DNA of 64,000 nt from Okamejei kenojei (taxonomy: Eukaryota), in the NCBI GenBank assembly GCA_035221665.1, contig CM069154.1, positions 5,766,001 to 5,830,000 of the forward strand, read 5' to 3'. Position numbers and translations under genes: made by a program. The notes under the pieces were generated by a model. That model saw nothing but the letters and a program-made list of their open reading frames with translations, was not told where the DNA came from and did not search any database. The stretch's first letter is position 1; the number at the start of each line of letters is the position of its first letter. This document shows positions 1,038 through 10,588 of the stretch, in pieces.

Positions 1038-1323
1038 CTAAAAGCGTTCTCATTCCATTCTCTTATTAGTACTCGTGCGATGGCAAATGTGTCTTATATT
1101 TTGCACACATTTTTCAACACTTGGTCAACACAGTTAATATAACTGAAGTACTCAAAGTTTACTAAAGGTCAAATCAGCGGAAAAATGGCTCAGTTTTGTT
1201 GATTACGTGACATAGATTTGTCACGGAAGTGGTTGAGAAAGTGGGATAACGTCGGAGCTAGTCTGAAAGGGTGATCAATGGTCAGGATGGACTTGGTGGG
1301 TTGGAGGGCCGGTTTCTATGCTA

Positions 1324-2925
1324 CAGTGGCTTGCAAAGGTTTTCATTCCCCTTGAACTTTTCCACATTTTGTCACGTTACAACCACAAACGTAAATGTAT
1401 TTTATTGGGATTTTATGTGATAGACCAACACAAATTGGCGCATAATTGTGATGTGGAAGGAAAACGATACATGGTTTTCAAATTTTTTTACAAATAAAAA
1501 ACTGAAAAGTGTGGCATGCAAAAGTATTCAACCCCCCTGAGTCAATACTTTGTAGAACCACCTTTCGCTGCAATTACAGCTGCAAGTCTTTTGGGGTATG
1601 TCTCTACCAGCATTGCACATCTAGAGACTGAGATTTTTGCCCATTCTTCTTTGAAAAATAGCTCAAGCTCAGTCAGATTGGATGGAGAGCGTCTGTGAAC
1701 AGCAATTTTCAAGTCTTGCCAGAGATTCTCAATTGGATTTAGGTCTGGACTTTGACTGGGCCATTCTAACACATGAATATGCTTTGATCTAAACAATTCC
1801 ATTGTAGCTCTGGCTGTATGTTTAGGGTCATTGTCCTGCTGGAAGGTGAACCTCCGCCCCAGTCTCAAGTCTTTTGCAGACTCTAACAGGTTTTCTTCCA
1901 AGATTGCCCTGTATTTGGCTCCATCCATATTCCCATCAACTCTGACCAGCTTCCCTAGCCCTGCTGAAGAAAAGCATCCCCACAGCATGATGCTGCCAAC
2001 ACCATGTTTCACAGTGGGGATAGTGTGTTCAGGGTGATATGCAGTGTTAGTTTTCCGCCACACATAGCGTTTTGCATTTAGGCCAAAAACTTCAATTTTG
2101 GTCTCATCAGACCAGAGCACCTTCCTCCACATGTTTGCTGTGTTCCCCACATGGCTTGTGGCAAACTGGAAACGTGACTTCTTATGGCTTTGTTTCAACA
2201 ATGGCTTTCTTCTTGCCATTCTTCCATAAAGGCCCGATTTGTGGAGTGCACGACTAATAGTTGTCCTGTGGACAGATTCTCCCACCTGAGCTGTGGATCT
2301 CTGCAGCTCCTCCAGAGTTACCATGGGCCTCTTGGCTGCTTCTCTGATCAATGCTCTCCTTGCCCGGCCTGTCAGTTTAGGTGGACGGCCATGTCTTGGT
2401 AGGTTTGCAGTTGTGCCATACTCTTTCCATTTTCAGATGATGGATTGAACAGTGCTCCGTGAGATGTTCAAATCTTGAGATATTTTTTTATAACCTAACC
2501 CTGCTTTAAACTTCTCCGCAACGTTATCCCTGATCTGGGCTTCATGATGCTGTTTGTTCACTAATTTTCTCTAACAAACCTCTGAGGCCTTCACAGAACA
2601 GCTGTATTTATACTGAGATTAGATTACACACAAGTGGACTCTATTTACTAATTAGGTGACTTCTGAAGGCAATTGGTTGTACTTAATTTTATTTAGGTGT
2701 ATCAGAGTAAAGGGGGCTGAAAACTTTTGCACACCACACTTTTCAGTTTTTTATTTGTAAAATATTATTTGTTTATTTGTATCATTTTCCTTCCACTTCA
2801 CAATTATGCGCCACTTTGTGTTGGTCTATCACATAAAATCCCAATAAAATACATTTACGTTTGTGGTTGTAACGTGACAAAATGTGGAAAAGTTCAAGGA
2901 GTATGAAAACTTTTGGAAGCCACTG
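1324..2925 (-). mobile_element. Tc1/mariner DNA transposon, IR/DR type, full length but defective
   Basis: ~210-bp terminal inverted repeats starting CAGTGG / ending CCACTG, TA duplication at 1322-1323 and 2926-2927, inner direct repeat near 1511-1535; inserted into a SINE tail. Confidence 0.95.
1542..2545 (-). pseudogene. Tc1 DD34E transposase with disrupted N-terminus
   Basis: WSDETK, FQQDNDPKH and SPDLNPIENLW motifs in ORF 1542-2351. The upstream DNA-binding region (GYKKISQ...GRPPKL) has a TGA at 2433-2435 and a frameshifting deletion just after the ATG at 2545. Confidence 0.92.
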
Positions 2926-3164
2926 TATATCTCTAAACTAAACCTTCACGGCTTTTTGGGATAAGAAGTAAACTGATATCAACAGTAATCATGCCAGAGG
3001 AAGTTGAATTGAATACTTTATTGTCACATATAACAAGTCACAGTGAAATTCTTTGCTTGCATACCCATGGTAGCTATTAGTCGCCAGGTAAAGGGCACTG
3101 ACAAAGCTAGAAAGTTGTTGAGGTAGGTACTACAACAACCTTTAAAAGACATTTGGACAGGTAT

Positions 3165-3702: not shown

Positions 3703-4457
3703 CTGAAAAACAATCGCACATTTACACTTTACAGTTTGTATACGTTTATATCCAACACACTGTTTATATAGAATTAACATTTTGTCTTTGTCCTTTGGAA
3801 AAGTTGATCCAACATTCTGTGAAGGAACCTGCACAGAGTTTATTGTGGCATGGTCTGGTTTAGTTTAGTTTAGACATACAGCATGGAAACACCATGGCCT
3901 CACTGAGTCCACGCCGACCATTTGTGACGTTTGTGACCAACAGTTTCTGATGACTCTAAGAGAATCTATGATTTGACCATAGATTCAAAAATTGTAGTAA
4001 AACATCTGAGTATTTCTTATTTACAAGCATTATATCAGTCCTTTCTAATAAGGAAAGAAACAAAATGCTGGAGTTCTCAGTGGATTAGGCAACATCTCTG
4101 GATGGTTGGCAACGTTATGAGATGGGACCATTCTTCAGCCTGAAAGCACGTTTAGAGATACATTGTGGAAACAGGCCCTTCGGCCCACCGAGTCCTTGCT
4201 GACCAGCAATCACCCCATACACTAGTTCGATCCTACACACTGGGGACATTAATTACAAAAACTGAATCCAGTTTTATTTCTCAACATTAAGTCCATAATT
4301 CCTCCCTCCATCGTTAACATGCTAGCTAAAGGAAATCGGATTTCTTCCCGACCCGAAACATCACCGCTTCACGTTCTCCACCAATGGACACAAACAGCTG
4401 GAGTAACTCAGCAGCATCTCTGGAGAAAAGGAATAGGTGAAGTTTCGGATCGAGACC

Positions 4458-4673
4458 TGTGGTGTATATTATATAAATGGTGTTACCTGCCTCCAAGTTA
4501 AAGGGGGAGCAGTGTGATGTATGTGATATAATTAGCAAATGTTATGTCTTGTGCGAGGGGACGCATGCGCTGGGGGAGACTCAAGGTGGTGTCCTAGAAT
4601 AAAGAAGCTTGTTAATTTACTCCTGTATCTGAGTGTTCTTTTAAGTCAGTTCCAAGCACCCAAATACACTACA
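4458..4673 (+). repeat. 5' LTR
   Basis: Direct repeat of 7442-7657 (10 mismatches in 216 bp by hand count); TG...CA ends; internal AATAAA. Confidence 0.95.
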
Positions 4674-4675
4674 AT

Positions 4676-4693
4676 TGGCGATGAGGATGGGAT
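4676..4693 (+). promoter_or_regulatory. Primer-binding site complementary to the tRNA-Ser(GCU) 3' end
   Basis: TGGCGATGAGGATGGGAT, 2 nt after the 5' LTR; 17/18 match to the reverse complement of the vertebrate tRNA-Ser(GCU) 3' end plus CCA (recalled sequence). Confidence 0.85.
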
Positions 4694-5287
4694 GGAGTTT
4701 GTGAACTCACCCACAGGACTGTTTTGTAATACGCAGATTGTTTAACAGTTTAAACTGTAGATATGGAGTTGTGTCGCAGTTGCTTGCGAGCTGGACATGA
4801 GAGGCCTGCAGATCCCTCTAAGCATGGGACTGTAGTTTAAAACATCAGCCGTACAAGTCGGCGAGTTTGTCAGGCTATCTCTATGTTGTGTCTATGTGGC
4901 AAGATGTCGTCCTTCGGATTGTGACACATTTTAGACTGAGTTTTTTTTTTGTCGAATTCCTCAAGCTGAATAATCTTTGTACAGCTAAGTTTTAGGTGAA
5001 TTGTTACACCAAAACACACAGCAAGGATAACGAGGCAACGAGGATAAAAGAACAGAAAAGAACAAAGAAGAAGGGCTGTCAAGAAAAAAAAAAGTTAAAA
5101 AGAAGAGGTTGGGTTTGCAAACAAAGTGGAACGGCACTAAGCAAAAAGATTTGGCGCCAAATGGTTTTGAATTGGTGCCAAAGAAAAGAAAGGTCGGAAC
5201 AGGAAGCAAGGAAAACAAGTGGGGCAGTAAGTGTCACCGAAGAACGCAGCCGAAAGCTGGAAGCCTAACCAGCAGGACAGCAACGGT

Positions 5288-5420
5288 GTCAACTTACCTG
5301 GAACGCTTTCCAGGGCCGTTTAGCCTTACGTAAGTTACTGCTGCCAGCAAAGCTCACAGACAAAATGTACGAGGAGTGTAAGGAGGCATTAATGGCTCAT
5401 TTCTCGCCAAAACCTCCAAG
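5288..5420 (+). pseudogene. Gypsy gag N-terminal remnant
   Basis: STYLERF...FSL/LRKLLLPAKLTDKMYEECKEALMAHFSPKP resembles Mag-type Gag (YxER...LLxxLxxPxKPxxKxYxE...LxxHFxPKP), with an internal deletion and a frameshift near 5325. Confidence 0.65.
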
Positions 5421-5467
5421 GGCATCCAGAGGGGAGGAGCCTGAACTAAAGAGGGCAGGGAGTCCCT

Positions 5468-5662
5468 CAAAGGGCAAAAGTCAAAGGCAAAGTAACAAAA
5501 GTCAAGTGCCAAATGATGAAGGTCAAGTGAAAAAGGCCAAAGGTAAAAGGCAAAGTGACAAAAGTCAAGGGCAAAGTGACAAAAATCAAGTGCCAAGTGA
5601 CAAAGGTCAAGTGGAAAAGGCCAAAGGTCAAAGGCAAAGGGACAAAAGTCAACTGCAAAGGG
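5468..5662 (+). repeat. Degenerate 21-bp coding minisatellite (~9 units, GQSDKSQ-like)
   Basis: Repeated GGCAAAGTGACAAAAGTCAAG-like units, in frame between the gag remnant and the IQ repeats. Confidence 0.8.
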
Positions 5663-5664
5663 AT

Positions 5665-6715
5665 ATTGCCGTCCAGAGGGCAACCCTAACTATTCAAGCT
5701 GCATTCAGGGGTATGAAGGTACGGAGACAGATCCGGAACAAACAGAAGGCAGCAACGGTAATACAAACAGCATTTAGAATGCACAGAGTATACTGTCCAT
5801 ACAGGGCAATGAAAATTGCAGCCATAATAGTACAAACCCATTATAGGGCACATCTTCAAATGGAAAGTGATTGCAAAACTGATATGATGGTACGCAGAAG
5901 GGTTGTACGGCTTCAGGCTGCCTACCGAGGAATGCTAGTTCGAAAGCAATTACAGGGCATGCACAAATCTGCCAAGGTCATACAGACTTATTATCAGATC
6001 AGAAACAGCGTCAGTATTTCAAGAAACTACACTGGTCTGCCATTGCAGTACAGCAACGATACAGAGCTTGCCAGATAGGAGACATTATAATAGTTTGAGA
6101 AAAGCAGTGGTTTGTATTCAGGCCTTCTACCTTCTGGGATTAAAGCCAGAGGATTGGTTGAGAAAATCAAGGCAGCACACCATATTAAGGTCAGTCTTAA
6201 TGATGTGCATTACAAGAAAAAATTTCTTGATGCAAACGGCAGCTGTAGTCACTCTGCAAGCTGCATACCGTGGTTACCGATCAAGGGTATGCTACCTGGC
6301 TATGCGACAAACATTCATTTCGATCCAGAGAAGGTACAAAGAATGCAAAATAGGGCATTCCCAGTTTGTGCAATATCAGTCAATGAGGTATGCACCCGTT
6401 ACCATTCAGGCTGCCTACAAGGATATGGTGGTTAGGCAGTGGATTAAGCAAAAGAGGGCTACTGTAAAAGTTCAGTCAGTACTTCGTATGAGTTGTTATA
6501 GGAAAGATCTCAGAAGACAAATAGATGCACAACAGAAAAGGCTGAAACGATACAAAAGGCTTAAACGATATAGGAAAGACTTCCTCAAACTGAAATATAC
6601 CACAGTTGTAGTGCAGTCTCACTACCGTGCTTATGCAGTAAGAAAACTATACAGAGCACAAATCAAAGCCACAGTTGTATTGCAAAGACAACACATATCC
6701 TATTTCTTGATGAAT
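5665..6715 (+). pseudogene. ASPM: Captured ASPM IQ-repeat fragment (frameshifted)
   Basis: Tandem IQ motifs with ASPM-like spacing and composition ([71 protein letters not shown]); several frameshifts between ~5995 and ~6180. Confidence 0.82.
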
Positions 6716-6724
6716 AACCAGAAA

Positions 6725-7237
6725 GGTGATTTAAGAAGACAAATAGATGAACAACAGAAAAGGCTTAAACGATACAAAGAACAGTTAAATAAATGTGTGA
6801 CGATGAGCAAAAAGTTGTTAATAGAAAAGTCTAAAGAAGAGAGGCTTGTCGGTCGAGACAAAGGTATGCAGGACCGATTGCGATTAGGACACTTCACTAT
6901 AGTCCAGCATGGAGCCTCCTTCACTGAGCAATGGACAAATGGTTATGCATTGCAGAATGTTATTGTACAACAAGATCAGATAAACATACAGCGCCAGGAA
7001 ATTGAGCGACAGAGGAAGCTGCTAGAAAACGAAAACCTGCAGTCATGTGTCAGATCCCACCTACAAATAAGGAACAGAAACAAAGGAGATGTTAACTTTA
7101 GCAGAATATCAGGAACAGGAAGAAATCTGCAAATTAGATTAGGATATTTAAAAAGGGAAGAGGCAGAGATCCAGGTAGAACTAGAGTGATTAGAAAGAGT
7201 GCGCAATTTACACAGAAGGGAACGGAAAAGGATAACA
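6725..7237 (+). pseudogene. TLK2: Captured, intronless Tousled-like kinase 2 coiled-coil fragment (no kinase domain)
   Basis: [11 protein letters not shown]...[17 protein letters not shown]...[15 protein letters not shown]...[14 protein letters not shown]...EIERQRK, then in shifted frames [29 protein letters not shown] and [30 protein letters not shown] and RDK favour TLK2 over TLK1. Confidence 0.9.
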
Positions 7238-7428
7238 CATAAAGCAAAGGGTAATGCATGTGATTTAAGGAAGATGAGTGTAATGAAAAATTATAAGTAC
7301 TAAGTTTAGATACGATTATTACAGTTATGTGGATGTAATGTAATTGTAATGTGATTGTAATAACATAAGTTTGCAAGTTAATCAATTATATTTAATGTAA
7401 ACGAAATGGTGTCACCCACTTCCAAGTT

Positions 7429-7440
7429 AAAGGGGGAGCA
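7429..7440 (+). promoter_or_regulatory. Polypurine tract
   Basis: AAAGGGGGAG-type purine run immediately before the 3' LTR. Confidence 0.8.
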
Positions 7441-7441
7441 T

Positions 7442-7657
7442 TGTGGTGTATATTGTATAAATGGTGTTACCTGCCTCCAAGTTAAAGGGGGAGCAGTGTG
7501 ATGTATGTGATATAATTAGCATATGTTATGTCTTGTGCGAGGGGATGCATGCGCTGGGGGAGACTCAAGGTGGCGTCCTAGAATAAAGAAGCTTGTTAGT
7601 TTACTCTTGTATCTGAATATTCTTTTAAGTTAGTTCTAAGCACCCAAATACACTACA
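7442..7657 (+). repeat. 3' LTR
   Basis: Direct repeat of 4458-4673, followed by the AGACC TSD. Confidence 0.95.
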
Positions 7658-7815
7658 AGACCCTTCTCCAGAGATGCTGCCTGGCCTGCTGAGCTACTTC
7701 AGCATTTTGCGTCTTTCCTTGGTAAACCAACATCTGCAGTTCCTTGTTTCTACACCCCTTTTGGTCTTGAGTAGATGGGAGCATCTCATCAGGAAGAAAT
7801 TAAGATTGATCTTAC

Positions 7816-8136
7816 CTTCTGTAACGTTCAGTTGTACTGGAACCATTTTGTCGTAGCCGAATTGCACAATGCCGCACCAGTAAAGCCCTGCATCATTGGC
7901 AGAGAGTTGGGTCACTTTAGTGATAAATTCTCCAGCAGTTTGGTTGTCCACCATTATTATTCTATCGTCAATGTTTTTATGTTGGCTTGCAGAATTGACC
8001 AGAACACTGCAGGATTTCCAATCAGAACCCTTGCACAAGTACTTTTCATGATTCTTGTAATATGCATGATACTGGCACCTTATGGTAACGGCTCCTCCCA
8101 GGGTCCCCGACACTAGCTTCGGCCCAGTTAATGCAG
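7816..8136 (-). CDS. Gene B IgV exon, copy 2 in transcript order (CD300/pIgR-like V domain)
   Basis: 321 nt, phase 1-1, ttgcag acceptor and gtaag donor; GTLGGAVTIRC...KYLCKG..WKSC...DAGLYWCG...VQLNVTE with the extra Cys pair typical of CD300/pIgR/TREM V domains. Confidence 0.88.
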
Positions 8137-9693
8137 CTGCAAGTACAAAGCACAGTTGGCAATTACTCAGAGTCCAGCAAAATGCTTGGAGGTCATCAGA
8201 GAACGAGCATTAATGGCTTATTTTGTTGTCTTGGTTTTTTCTTTGCACTGTCTTCCTTCGTTTTACGGTCTTGGAGTCTCTCTCTCTCCCTCTCCCCCCG
8301 CACCCCCCACATACACTCAGACTCACATTCACGCTCATCCAGTTCCTTTCTTCATAATGTAATTGGTTTAATTACAAGAAGAAAGAGTTCATACTAATTG
8401 GCTAAATTACTATTTGAAAGAGTTAGCACAGACTTAAATAGAAACATAGAAAATAGGTGGAGGAGTAGGCCATTTGGCCCTTTGAGCCAGCACCGCCATT
8501 CAATATGATCACGGCTGATCATCCAGAATCAGTACCCTGTTCCTGCTTTTTCCCCATATCCCTTGATTGTGTTAGCCCCAAGAACACCCGGAGGAAACCC
8601 ATGAGGTCACAGGGAGAACTTACAAACTCTGCATTGACTGCATCTGAGGTCAGGATCGAACCTGGGTGTCTGGTGCTGTGAGGCAGCATCACTACCGCTG
8701 CGCCACTGTGCTGCCCCTTACCTATTGGATGTATATCCTTTCTTAAGCAAAGTGAGACCTAAAATGAGGTCACACGTCAGGTTCATAAAATTGGGCTTGT
8801 GCAACTGAGAACAATTGTTACTAGACTACCTTTTCCCTTTACCATAACCATAGCAGATGTAAATAAATTATGATTTGCTATTAAAATGCTTCTGTACTGA
8901 AAGCATAAATCCAGCTCTTTTCCTCAACATTAAGCCCAGAGGTTTTCCCATCTTTGGTTTCATGCTTGCAAAAGAAAATCCTAGGGATTTCTTCCAAAGT
9001 TTCTGACAGCTGTAAGTGAATCAGATATGGGGCTTTATATGTGTGCCCGATATATTGTCAGTGCAAAGGGGCTAGGAGCAAGGCCAAGTGTGCATCCAGA
9101 GTCAAGGTCTTGAATAGTACTAGGTGTGCAGTCAAAGCTGGGACCAGGGGTGTGTTCAGCACTGGGAACCTAAGCAGGTAAGCAGCTATGATCAGGGTAG
9201 AATAGGGGGCCAGGTGTAAGACTGGACTCAGGGACAGGAATGAGAGAAGGCATGCAACTGGAGTCAGGGCCAGGAGTAGTACCAGGTGTGTAGTGAGACC
9301 CAGGTTGGCCAACATGGGCCAAGTGTTTGATTATAATCTGATTTCCATACATGAATACACTAAGATCATTCATGTGCTGCACGTATGGATCAGAGCCTGG
9401 GCTCTTCTGTGGAATGTAACTAGGAATGTAATTTACTCTAACCTTATTCATAGCTAATCCAATTTAAAGCATATATATTGCGTTCAAGTGTAAGTTAAAA
9501 GACTCGCTACAGTATGCACCATATTACACAATTTCAAGCTGAAAAATGCAAAGGTTCCGTACCAATGGGAGGGGGGACACCCTCCTCCAACACCCCCCCC
9601 CCCCCCCCCCCCAGTCTCTACGCTCCCTCGGGCTTGGTCTCACAATTTCTCACTCCCAACTCTCACCCAATGTTGGCAGCCCTGAAACTGGCT

Positions 9694-10588
9694 CTTCGGC
9701 CCACCTAGTCCTTGCTGACCAACAATCACCCCATACACTAGTTCGATCCTACACACTGGGGACAAATTACAAAAACTGAATCCAGTTTTATTTCTCAACA
9801 TTAAGTCCATAATTCCTCCCTCCCTCGTTAACATGCTAGCTAAAGAAAATCGGACTTCTTCCCGACCCGAAACATCACCGCTTCACGTTCTCCACCGATG
9901 GACACAAACAGCTAGAGTAACTCAGCAGCATCTCTGGAGAAAAAGAATAGGTGAAGTTTCGGATCGAGACCCTTCTCCAGAGATGCTGCCTGACCTGCTG
10001 AGCTACTTCAGCATTTTGCATCTTTCCTTAGTAAACCAATATCTGCAGTTCCTTGTTTCTACACCCCTTTTGGTCTTGAGTAGATGGGAGCATCTCATCA
10101 GGAAGAAATTAAGATTGACCTTACCTTCTGTAACGTTCAGTTGTACTGGAACCATTTTGTCGTAGCCGAATTGTGCAATGCCGCACCAGTAAAGCCCTGC
10201 ATCATTGGCAGAGAGTTGGGTCACTTTAGTGATAAATTCTCCAGCAGTTTGGTTGTCCACCATTATTATTCTATTGTCAATGTTTTTATGTTGGTTTGCA
10301 GAATTGACCAGAACACTGCAGGATTTCCAATTAGAACCCTTGCACAAGTACTTCTCATGATTCTTGTAATATGCATGATACTGGCACCTTATGGTAACGG
10401 CTCCTCCCAGGGTCCCCGACACTAGCTTCGGCCCAGTTAATGCAGCTGCAAGTACAAAGCACAGTTGGCAATTACTCAAGAGTCCAGCAAAACGCTTGGA
10501 GGTCATCAGAGGACGAGCACTAATGGCTTATTTTGTTGTCTTGGTTTTTTCCTTTGCACTGTCTTCCTTTGTTTTACGGTCTTGGAGT
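9694..10588. repeat. Segmental duplicate of 4179-4457 plus 7663-8278 (IgV exon and flanking intron), lacking the LTR element
   Basis: ~97-98% identical by hand alignment; single AGACC at 9967-9971 where the other copy has the LTR insertion. Confidence 0.93.
10125..10445 (-). CDS. Gene B IgV exon, copy 1 in transcript order
   Basis: 321 nt, phase 1-1, canonical splice sites; 6 nt / 4 aa different from 7816-8136. Confidence 0.88.

What the first reader, a model, noticed from the sequence alone, without database searches (positions are those of the whole stretch)
5326..7237. Gag-linker-IQ-coiled-coil junctions are in frame: relic of a translated fusion protein?
Seen: the gag remnant runs without a frame change through the 21-bp repeat into the IQ motifs (ORF 5365-6078). 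The ASPM-to-TLK2 junction near 6725 is in frame (ORF 6068-7189), and an internal 72-nt insertion also preserves frame. The roughly seven frameshifts and the CGA>TGA-type stop (7187) fall inside domains, not at junctions. Inference: the progenitor encoded one Gag-IQ-TLK2cc protein, which could bind calmodulin and oligomerise with host TLKs while lacking a kinase domain (decoy-like). Three in-frame joins could still be chance, about 1 in 27.
Basis: inference. Interest (0 to 1): 0.72.

Follow-up and report, generated by a model that had tools for sequence, protein, structure and literature searches.

The report
Jumping gene keeps captured-gene frame open
This is one decayed copy of a skate-like fish's jumping-gene family that carries pieces of two host genes joined to a capsid fragment in one reading frame; its spreading lineages shed stops and made up for frameshifts while most amino acids drifted, so the element likely needed to be translated rather than to make a specific decoy protein.

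Summary
The window holds a 3.2-kb non-autonomous Ty3/Gypsy-type LTR element, one of at least 146 cargo-bearing copies studied. It carries an ASPM IQ-repeat piece and a spliced TLK2 coiled-coil piece behind a cut-down gag.

Other copies keep the start codon this one lost. The gag-ASPM, ASPM-TLK2 and 72-nt joins are in frame family-wide. The four ASPM shifts are private. The three TLK2 shifts are inherited and sum to -30, and other lineages carry different compensating sets. Among variants shared by 10 or more copies there are 0 stops in 86 changes (5.7 expected, p=0.002).

Amino acids are mostly free: dN/dS-like about 1.0 for the IQ part, 0.3-0.5 for the TLK2 part (weak signal). So the single fusion frame is supported, but the calmodulin/TLK decoy idea mostly is not. 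Best reading: translation in cis helped the element spread, as with mouse IAP 1-delta-1. No intact copy was found and no expression data were obtained. Two look-ups of this scan's notes showed no report on this family; one noted a different captured cargo in a retroelement of this genome.

The parts
4453..4457 (+). 5' target-site duplication (agacc) inside a SINE-like repeat
   Evidence: sequence; a single copy at the empty paralogous site 9967-9971, flanks 879/904 identical
4458..4673 (+). 5' LTR (TG...CA)
   Evidence: 10 mismatches in 217 nt to the 3' LTR
4676..4693 (+). primer-binding site matching the 3' end of tRNA-Ser(GCT)
   Evidence: pattern search found 16 genomic matches; 2 of 3 loci scanned are tRNA-Ser(gct); PBS tally
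4694..5323 (+). non-coding leader, cut short by a private deletion that also removed the gag start and about 54 codons
5324..5467 (+). gag remnant: end of the N-terminal part joined to the spacer before the zinc knuckles; middle of gag deleted in frame (348/351 nt against two parental-type elements)
5468..5663 (+). 21-nt repeat linker at the gag-ASPM join; K/R-rich
5640..6731 (+). captured piece of the host ASPM large IQ exon (host locus G000:C10), about 87% identical; four private frameshifts
6495..6566 (+). 72-nt in-frame insert: a copy of the start of the TLK2 piece placed inside the ASPM piece
   Evidence: in 74 of 146 copies as exactly +72
6726..7239 (+). captured spliced TLK2 piece (five host exons, G000:C31, introns absent; coiled-coil region, no kinase), about 90% identical; three inherited shifts with net -30; inherited stop at 7187
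7227..7441 (+). 3' tail from the parental element just after the end of its pol, ending in a purine tract (7429-7438)
7442..7657 (+). 3' LTR with AATAAA
7658..7662 (+). 3' target-site duplication (agacc)

Best explanation
This is a decayed copy of a non-autonomous Ty3/Gypsy-type LTR family whose spreading lineages kept one long gag-ASPM-TLK2 frame open while the cargo residues mostly drifted, likely because the RNA had to be translated in cis to be copied. Shown: LTRs, target duplication, primer site, no pol, spliced cargo, 4-nt shared sequence at two joins, in-frame joins, absence of inherited stops before the last 20 TLK2 codons, compensating shifts, and neutral decay of inserted copies. Inferred: capture by reverse-transcriptase template switches; mobilisation by a related autonomous element; and the reason for the open frame. 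A Gag N-terminal piece followed by a long basic tail, read to within a few hundred bases of the 3' LTR, would keep the RNA from premature-stop decay and would bring it, still on ribosomes, to the helper's particles. On this reading the cargo is mainly open-frame filler. I cannot separate RNA stability from a sequence-tolerant protein acting in cis.
For: Stops: 0 among 115, 86 and 54 non-CpG codon changes shared by at least 8, 10 and 15 copies, against 7.7, 5.7 and 3.6 expected (p=0.0002, 0.002, 0.024). Indels seen in one copy are mostly frame-breaking (325 vs 109), whereas every indel in 10 or more copies before TLK2 nt 300 keeps the frame: +72, -3, -3, and a +1/-7 pair carried by the same 10 copies. 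TLK2 nt 285-447 carries inherited shifts yet is net in phase in 75 of 106 copies, as often as control stretches without inherited shifts (68-76%); the main classes are -30, -24, -3, +3 and -63. A host TGA that lies in the shifted frame is changed in 8 of 8 copies that read that frame, deleted or changed in most of the -30 class, and kept in 28 of 31 copies that do not read it. A separate lineage that deleted about 150 nt rejoins the same tail frame in 7 of the 9 copies printed. Residues: private branches 0.83-1.01; shared IQ changes 0.92-1.05; a 45-codon stretch is read in a foreign frame in most copies. Precedent: the IAP 1-delta-1 fusion aids retrotransposition in cis (passage in PMC7411935); translating Ty1 RNA nucleates assembly sites (abstract of PMC3945221).
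Against: The largest group sampled carries a stop 20 codons before the end of the TLK2 piece (63/103), and 18 copies share an uncompensated -1 at TLK2 nt 461. One ASPM CGA is TGA in 34 of 125 copies; it is scattered over the tree, so I read it as a CpG hot spot, but that is a judgement. Three frame-breaking ASPM indels occur in 5, 6 and 8 copies, scattered over groups. The first 95 TLK2 codons show some constraint (0.30-0.53, conservative changes p=0.015-0.27), which pure filler would not. Mini-Ty1 elements without functional products transpose with a helper (passage in PMC4974528), so translation is not a general need. The tests assume the spreading lineages mutated like inserted copies. The sample is biased towards copies like the window's. 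No RNA data were obtained.
Confidence: 0.55

Rival explanations
1. Rebuilt mini-Gag: the fusion protein worked in particle assembly, with the TLK2 coiled coil standing in for the deleted middle of gag as a self-association module and the basic IQ run standing in for the zinc knuckles as an RNA binder.
For: The middle of gag (116-117 codons) was deleted in frame. Only 6 of 122 copies keep the knuckles; four of these branch near the host on the tree. The IQ piece is strongly basic (67 K/R vs 8 D/E in 335), and shared changes lean basic (+4 vs -1.3 expected, p=0.09). TLK2 codons 7-101 show 0.30-0.53. CC1 is needed for TLK2 dimers (PMC6023931 section 6).
Against: The signals rest on 9-24 changes, and distance-based intervals include 1. 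Four copies of one group lack TLK2 beyond about nt 258. That the deleted part is the capsid C-terminal domain is recalled; the fold was uninformative (pLDDT 39).
Confidence: 0.2
2. One reading: the protein bound calmodulin and poisoned host TLK1/TLK2 oligomers, loosening chromatin control of the element.
For: Kinase-less coiled-coil region in an open frame; weak constraint on the TLK2 piece; CC1 mediates the TLK1 interaction.
Against: IQ residues are neutral and key positions are not spared. At least 14 changes fall at TLK2 positions almost invariant across sharks and rays. The piece begins at DLRRQ, which by recall is part-way into CC1, and lacks the N-terminus that carries the nuclear signal. 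A decoy acts in trans and would not be selected copy by copy (logic of PMC9073684). My search for a TLK-depletion/ERV link listed no paper holding that phrase among the 10 shown.
Confidence: 0.1
3. Chance: in-frame joins and compensations are luck plus frame-biased microhomology, and the cargo is a passenger.
For: Joins sit on 4-nt shared sequence that is in codon phase in both partners. Some lineages spread with late stops or shifts. The events are few and not fully independent, since recombination reshuffles them.
Against: At least six structural events are in frame, inherited stops are absent (p=0.002), and the shifted-frame stop is removed only where it is read.
Confidence: 0.1
4. A host-selected source gene kept the frame and merely spawned copies.
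For: A RefSeq model in Leucoraja erinacea (XP_055489032.1) is a gag-linker-IQ fusion, which hints at transcription.
Against: That model is 290 aa and ends early in the IQ part. None of 110 copies has an unbroken frame (longest 423 codons), and none of 150 scored gag matches has an open frame over 446 aa. The tree is a ladder of successive subfamilies.
Confidence: 0.05

Closest known systems
LTR-mediated retrocopies (Tan et al. 2016, PMC5131818; passages read)
   Same: Partial spliced mRNAs replace internal ORFs, short shared sequence at switch points, several parent genes in one element, sense orientation, further rounds as non-autonomous elements.
   Different: In the passages I read, open frames are put down to youth or to single constrained retrogenes. 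Here an old family of at least 146 copies shows frame-keeping across successive lineages with near-neutral residues.
Maize Bs1 (seen only through passages of PMC13317346 and PMC5131818; the primary paper was not held)
   Same: LTR element with pieces of several host genes forming a chimeric ORF.
   Different: Bs1 is a plant element reported as transcribed and translated with a possible host role. This vertebrate family shows no intact copy, and selection appears tied to spreading.
Mouse IAP 1-delta-1 (Saito et al. 2008, seen only as a passage and citation in PMC7411935; the primary paper was not held)
   Same: Non-autonomous LTR element whose fusion ORF aids retrotransposition in cis while needing a helper.
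   Different: There the fusion is Gag-Pol from the element itself in a retrovirus-like family. Here it is Gag plus two host cargos in a Ty3/Gypsy-type element, and the evidence is evolutionary, not experimental.
Gag-onc fusions of transducing retroviruses (recalled, no call)
   Same: Gag N-terminus fused in frame to captured host coding sequence in a helper-dependent genome.
   Different: Those cargos are selected for their activity. The IQ cargo here is not, and no env or infectious stage is seen.

Membership tests
Ty3/Gypsy LTR retrotransposon derivative | Paired LTRs with TG...CA ends, 4-6 bp target duplication, tRNA primer site, purine tract | tested here: met
Ty3/Gypsy LTR retrotransposon derivative | Parental pol order protease-RT-RNase H-integrase | tested here: met
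   relative L129, which shares gag and the 3' tail, has Pfam hits in that order; the protease hit is under its cut-off
Mag clade of Ty3/Gypsy | RT phylogeny placing it in Mag | not tested
   label recalled from the tRNA-Ser primer site, 5-bp duplication and two knuckles; no tree built
LTR-mediated retrocopy (Tan 2016) | Intron-less cargo replacing internal ORFs | tested here: met
   five TLK2 exons joined, no pol; the ASPM piece lies within one exon, so it is uninformative on splicing
LTR-mediated retrocopy (Tan 2016) | Short shared sequence at switch points | tested here: met
   4 nt at gag-ASPM and 4 nt at ASPM-TLK2; not tested against a random model
LTR-mediated retrocopy (Tan 2016) | Further retroposition as a non-autonomous element | tested here: met
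   copies on many contigs; 53 with paired LTRs, median 94.7%
1-delta-1-like cis-translated non-autonomous element | One fusion ORF retained in mobile lineages | tested here: met
1-delta-1-like cis-translated non-autonomous element | Loss of translation lowers mobility in cis | not testable with these tools
   needs an experiment; only indirect evolutionary support
Domesticated chimeric gene (Bs1-like) | An intact, expressed copy under purifying selection | tested here: not met
   0 of 110 copies unbroken; private branches neutral; expression untested; only 150 of 433 gag candidates were scored
Calmodulin/TLK decoy | IQ key residues conserved | tested here: not met
   p=0.35, and the trend runs the wrong way; 6 motifs found by my pattern
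Calmodulin/TLK decoy | TLK2 coiled coil under constraint | tested here: inconclusive
   0.30-0.53 by frequency test; distance intervals include 1

The most novel reading that the evidence does not exclude
A defective Gypsy element rebuilt a working mini-Gag out of host parts. After deleting the middle of gag and later its zinc knuckles, it used a TLK2 coiled coil to self-associate and basic ASPM IQ repeats to hold its own RNA, so it could hijack helper particles; the same coiled coil may also have touched host TLKs.
Probability: 0.22. Interest if true: 0.85.

Novelty: new variant of a known kind. Interest (0 to 1): 0.6.

Why it matters
Non-autonomous LTR elements are usually treated as non-coding passengers. 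This family gives a natural record, over several successive lineages, that a helper-dependent vertebrate element was selected to keep a long frame open almost regardless of what it encoded, down to paired frameshifts and removal of a stop that mattered only in the shifted frame. It extends the cis-translation idea known from mouse IAP 1-delta-1 to captured host sequence. It also offers a simple reason why LTR-captured gene pieces can stay in frame for long periods without a host function. That cautions against reading in-frame cargo as a functional new gene, and shows how such chimeras could be kept ready for later co-option. At least one public gene model labelled ASPM is a copy of this family.

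Tried and rejected
The branch between host and family therefore mixes host and element changes (0.37-0.56), and I did not use it as evidence of selection on the element.

The raw singleton-versus-shared N/S test looked highly significant (ASPM p=3e-5). I rejected it: with mutation type accounted for, the ASPM effect vanished. Two apparent shared stops came from scoring in the host codon; no such stops exist in the real codons. The BLOSUM and proline signals faded once host-side and CpG changes were removed.

A single-sequence fold of a parental gag was uninformative, the PDB sequence search gave only E>=0.04 noise, and the representatives and atlas services were busy. I did not run a complex prediction: a pass would follow from likeness to a TLK homodimer. 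The TLK2-to-tail join is not in the pol frame, so I did not count it.

Literature: 0 papers hold 3 of skate / LTR retrotransposon / ASPM / TLK2; listings showed no such family; subscription papers are not covered. No supplements were opened. Rows dropped: of 158 loci, 8 without cargo, 1 with dense 1-nt indels and 3 near-duplicates.

Full report
What is there. The finding lies inside a 3.2-kb LTR element: LTRs at 4458-4673 and 7442-7657 (10 mismatches in 217 nt), a 5-bp target duplication, a primer site and a purine tract. A tandem paralogue of the flanks at about 9967 is empty and 879/904 identical. The primer site matches tRNA-Ser(GCT) genes of the genome. A DNA search of the own genome gave 73 matches from 40 scored of 1652 candidates. 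TLK2 and gag protein searches gave 60 of 1440 and 150 of 433 scored. I analysed 158 loci: 131 hold both cargos and 114 hold gag plus both; 146 were used after dropping 8 without cargo, 1 noisy and 3 near-duplicates. The host is a cartilaginous fish, skate-like: its TLK2 piece is identical to those of two skates and one shark in the protein collection.

The cargo. The IQ part comes from one stretch of the large ASPM exon on G000:C10. The coiled-coil part comes from five TLK2 exons on C31 with the introns gone; it matches TLK2 at 88-91% and TLK1 at 75-81%. The joins sit on 4-nt shared sequence in codon phase, as described for template switching (passages of PMC5131818). Related elements without cargo have a full gag with two zinc knuckles and a pol in Ty3/Gypsy order, and share the 3' tail. 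The likely order, inferred from the copies and the tree, is: in-frame loss of 348-351 nt of gag; capture of ASPM just after the knuckles and of TLK2 behind it; loss of the knuckles (kept in 6 of 122 copies) and growth of the 21-nt repeat; then the 72-nt insert.

The observation. This copy has lost the true start in a private deletion; 104 of 110 copies covering that site have ATG. The gag-to-ASPM distance is in phase in 53 of 95 copies, against 44-50% for equal stretches inside ASPM; the ASPM-TLK2 join is in phase in 95 of 104. The window's four ASPM shifts are private. Its three TLK2 shifts and its stop are inherited.

Was the frame selected? Inserted copies decay neutrally (dN/dS 0.83-1.01; frameshifts outnumber in-frame indels 325 to 109), and none of 110 is unbroken. 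Variants shared by many copies trace the spreading lineages (approach of PMC9073684, abstract and passages). Among non-CpG shared changes in gag, ASPM and the first 95 TLK2 codons there are no stops in 115, 86 or 54 steps at three thresholds, where 7.7, 5.7 and 3.6 were expected. Indels in 10 or more copies before TLK2 nt 300 all keep the frame; three frame-breaking ones in 5-8 copies are scattered across groups.

After nt 300, inherited shifts come in sets that cancel: net -30, -24, -3, +3 and -63, in phase in 75 of 106 copies like control stretches. A TGA that exists only in the shifted frame is changed in 8 of 8 copies that read it and kept in 28 of 31 that do not. A second such TGA was already lost in 8 of 15 unshifted copies, so it was gone before it mattered. 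Another lineage deleted about 150 nt and rejoins the same tail frame (7 of 9 copies printed). Against this stand the late stop (63/103), a late -1 (18 copies), a CpG stop in 34 of 125 scattered copies, and a group that lost TLK2 beyond about nt 258. The constraint therefore weakens towards the 3' end.

Was the protein sequence selected? Mostly not. An uncorrected test suggested so, but with mutation type accounted for the IQ part gives 0.92-1.05, gag 0.23-0.71 (not significant, 6-14 steps) and TLK2 0.30-0.53 (p=0.012-0.044, 9-24 steps). Distance estimates between subfamilies are 0.46-0.65 with intervals reaching 1.03-1.30. IQ key residues are not spared. The TLK2 piece has at least 14 residue changes in a stretch nearly invariant in sharks and rays, and 45 codons are read in a foreign frame in most copies. 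Autonomous Sireviruses, by contrast, show at least 85% of non-synonymous changes to be harmful (abstract).

Mechanism. An open frame with tolerant content, needed until near the 3' LTR and selected copy by copy, points to an effect in cis. I favour (0.55) translation itself as the need: a Gag N-terminal piece with a long basic tail that spares the RNA from premature-stop decay and delivers it to particles made by a helper. Precedents are the IAP 1-delta-1 fusion (secondary passage only) and co-translational nucleation of Ty1 assembly sites (abstract); mini-Ty1 shows this is not universal (passage). A rebuilt mini-Gag in which the coiled coil and basic repeats replace lost gag parts gets 0.2. 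The decoy gets 0.1: CC1 does mediate TLK dimers (PMC6023931 section 6), but a trans-acting decoy would not be selected in this way and the IQ sites are free. Chance gets 0.1 and a host-selected source gene 0.05.

Age and spread. LTR pairs are 87.5-98.7% identical, median 94.7% (n=53), so the family looks inactive now; I did not convert this to years. A RefSeq model from Leucoraja erinacea named ASPM homolog (XP_055489032.1, 290 aa) is a gag-linker-IQ fusion of this family. Its best match in G000 is 79% among 135 scored of 2784 candidates, so that copy was not found here.

Novelty. Capture of several spliced mRNAs by LTR elements, chimeric ORFs (Bs1) and cis-acting fusions (1-delta-1) are known. 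I found no paper on this family (0 hits; listings). This scan's notes held none for these words, and the 8 of 29 shown for this genome included only a different cargo (untested). The new part is the family-wide record of frame-keeping with near-neutral cargo. Verdict: new variant of a known kind, interest 0.6.

Noticed in passing
window 1322-2927: Inverted repeats (150 nt, 95%) around a 296-codon open frame on the minus strand that looks like a Tc1/mariner transposase (label recalled).
   Followed up: no
window 7694-8209 and 10003-10527, minus strand: Two near-identical exons that look like V-type immunoglobulin domains of the CD300/pIgR kind (label recalled), in a tandem duplication; the LTR element sits in one unit only.
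   Followed up: partly
window 7404-7515: The first 55 nt of the 3' LTR are preceded by an 84% identical copy, and many copies' 5' LTRs match only from about base 54; LTR starts vary in this family.
   Followed up: no
P0241 (XP_055489032.1): A public gene model named ASPM homolog is a copy of this element's gag-linker-IQ fusion.
   Followed up: partly
L036:9490-6526 minus (G000:C10): The host ASPM large exon, about 1990 codons by two open frames, has internal repeats about 657 nt apart; four units match the cargo's start at 83-85%.
   Followed up: no
L113, L114, L116, L117, L124-L127 and others: A subfamily with diverged LTRs (72-79% to a window-like copy), an altered gag start, longer 21-nt linkers and stepwise loss of the TLK2 3' part.
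   Followed up: partly
L112:3764-7580; L120:4302-7989: Other Gypsy-type pol sequences are inserted inside copies of this family.
   Followed up: no
L131: A copy with the in-frame gag deletion and knuckle sequence but no cargo seen, possibly a pre-capture stage; it is cut off soon after, so this is uncertain.
   Followed up: partly
L168 (G000:C6:66648200-66653850): About 30 one-base indels in 550 nt, probably local sequencing or assembly error.
   Followed up: no
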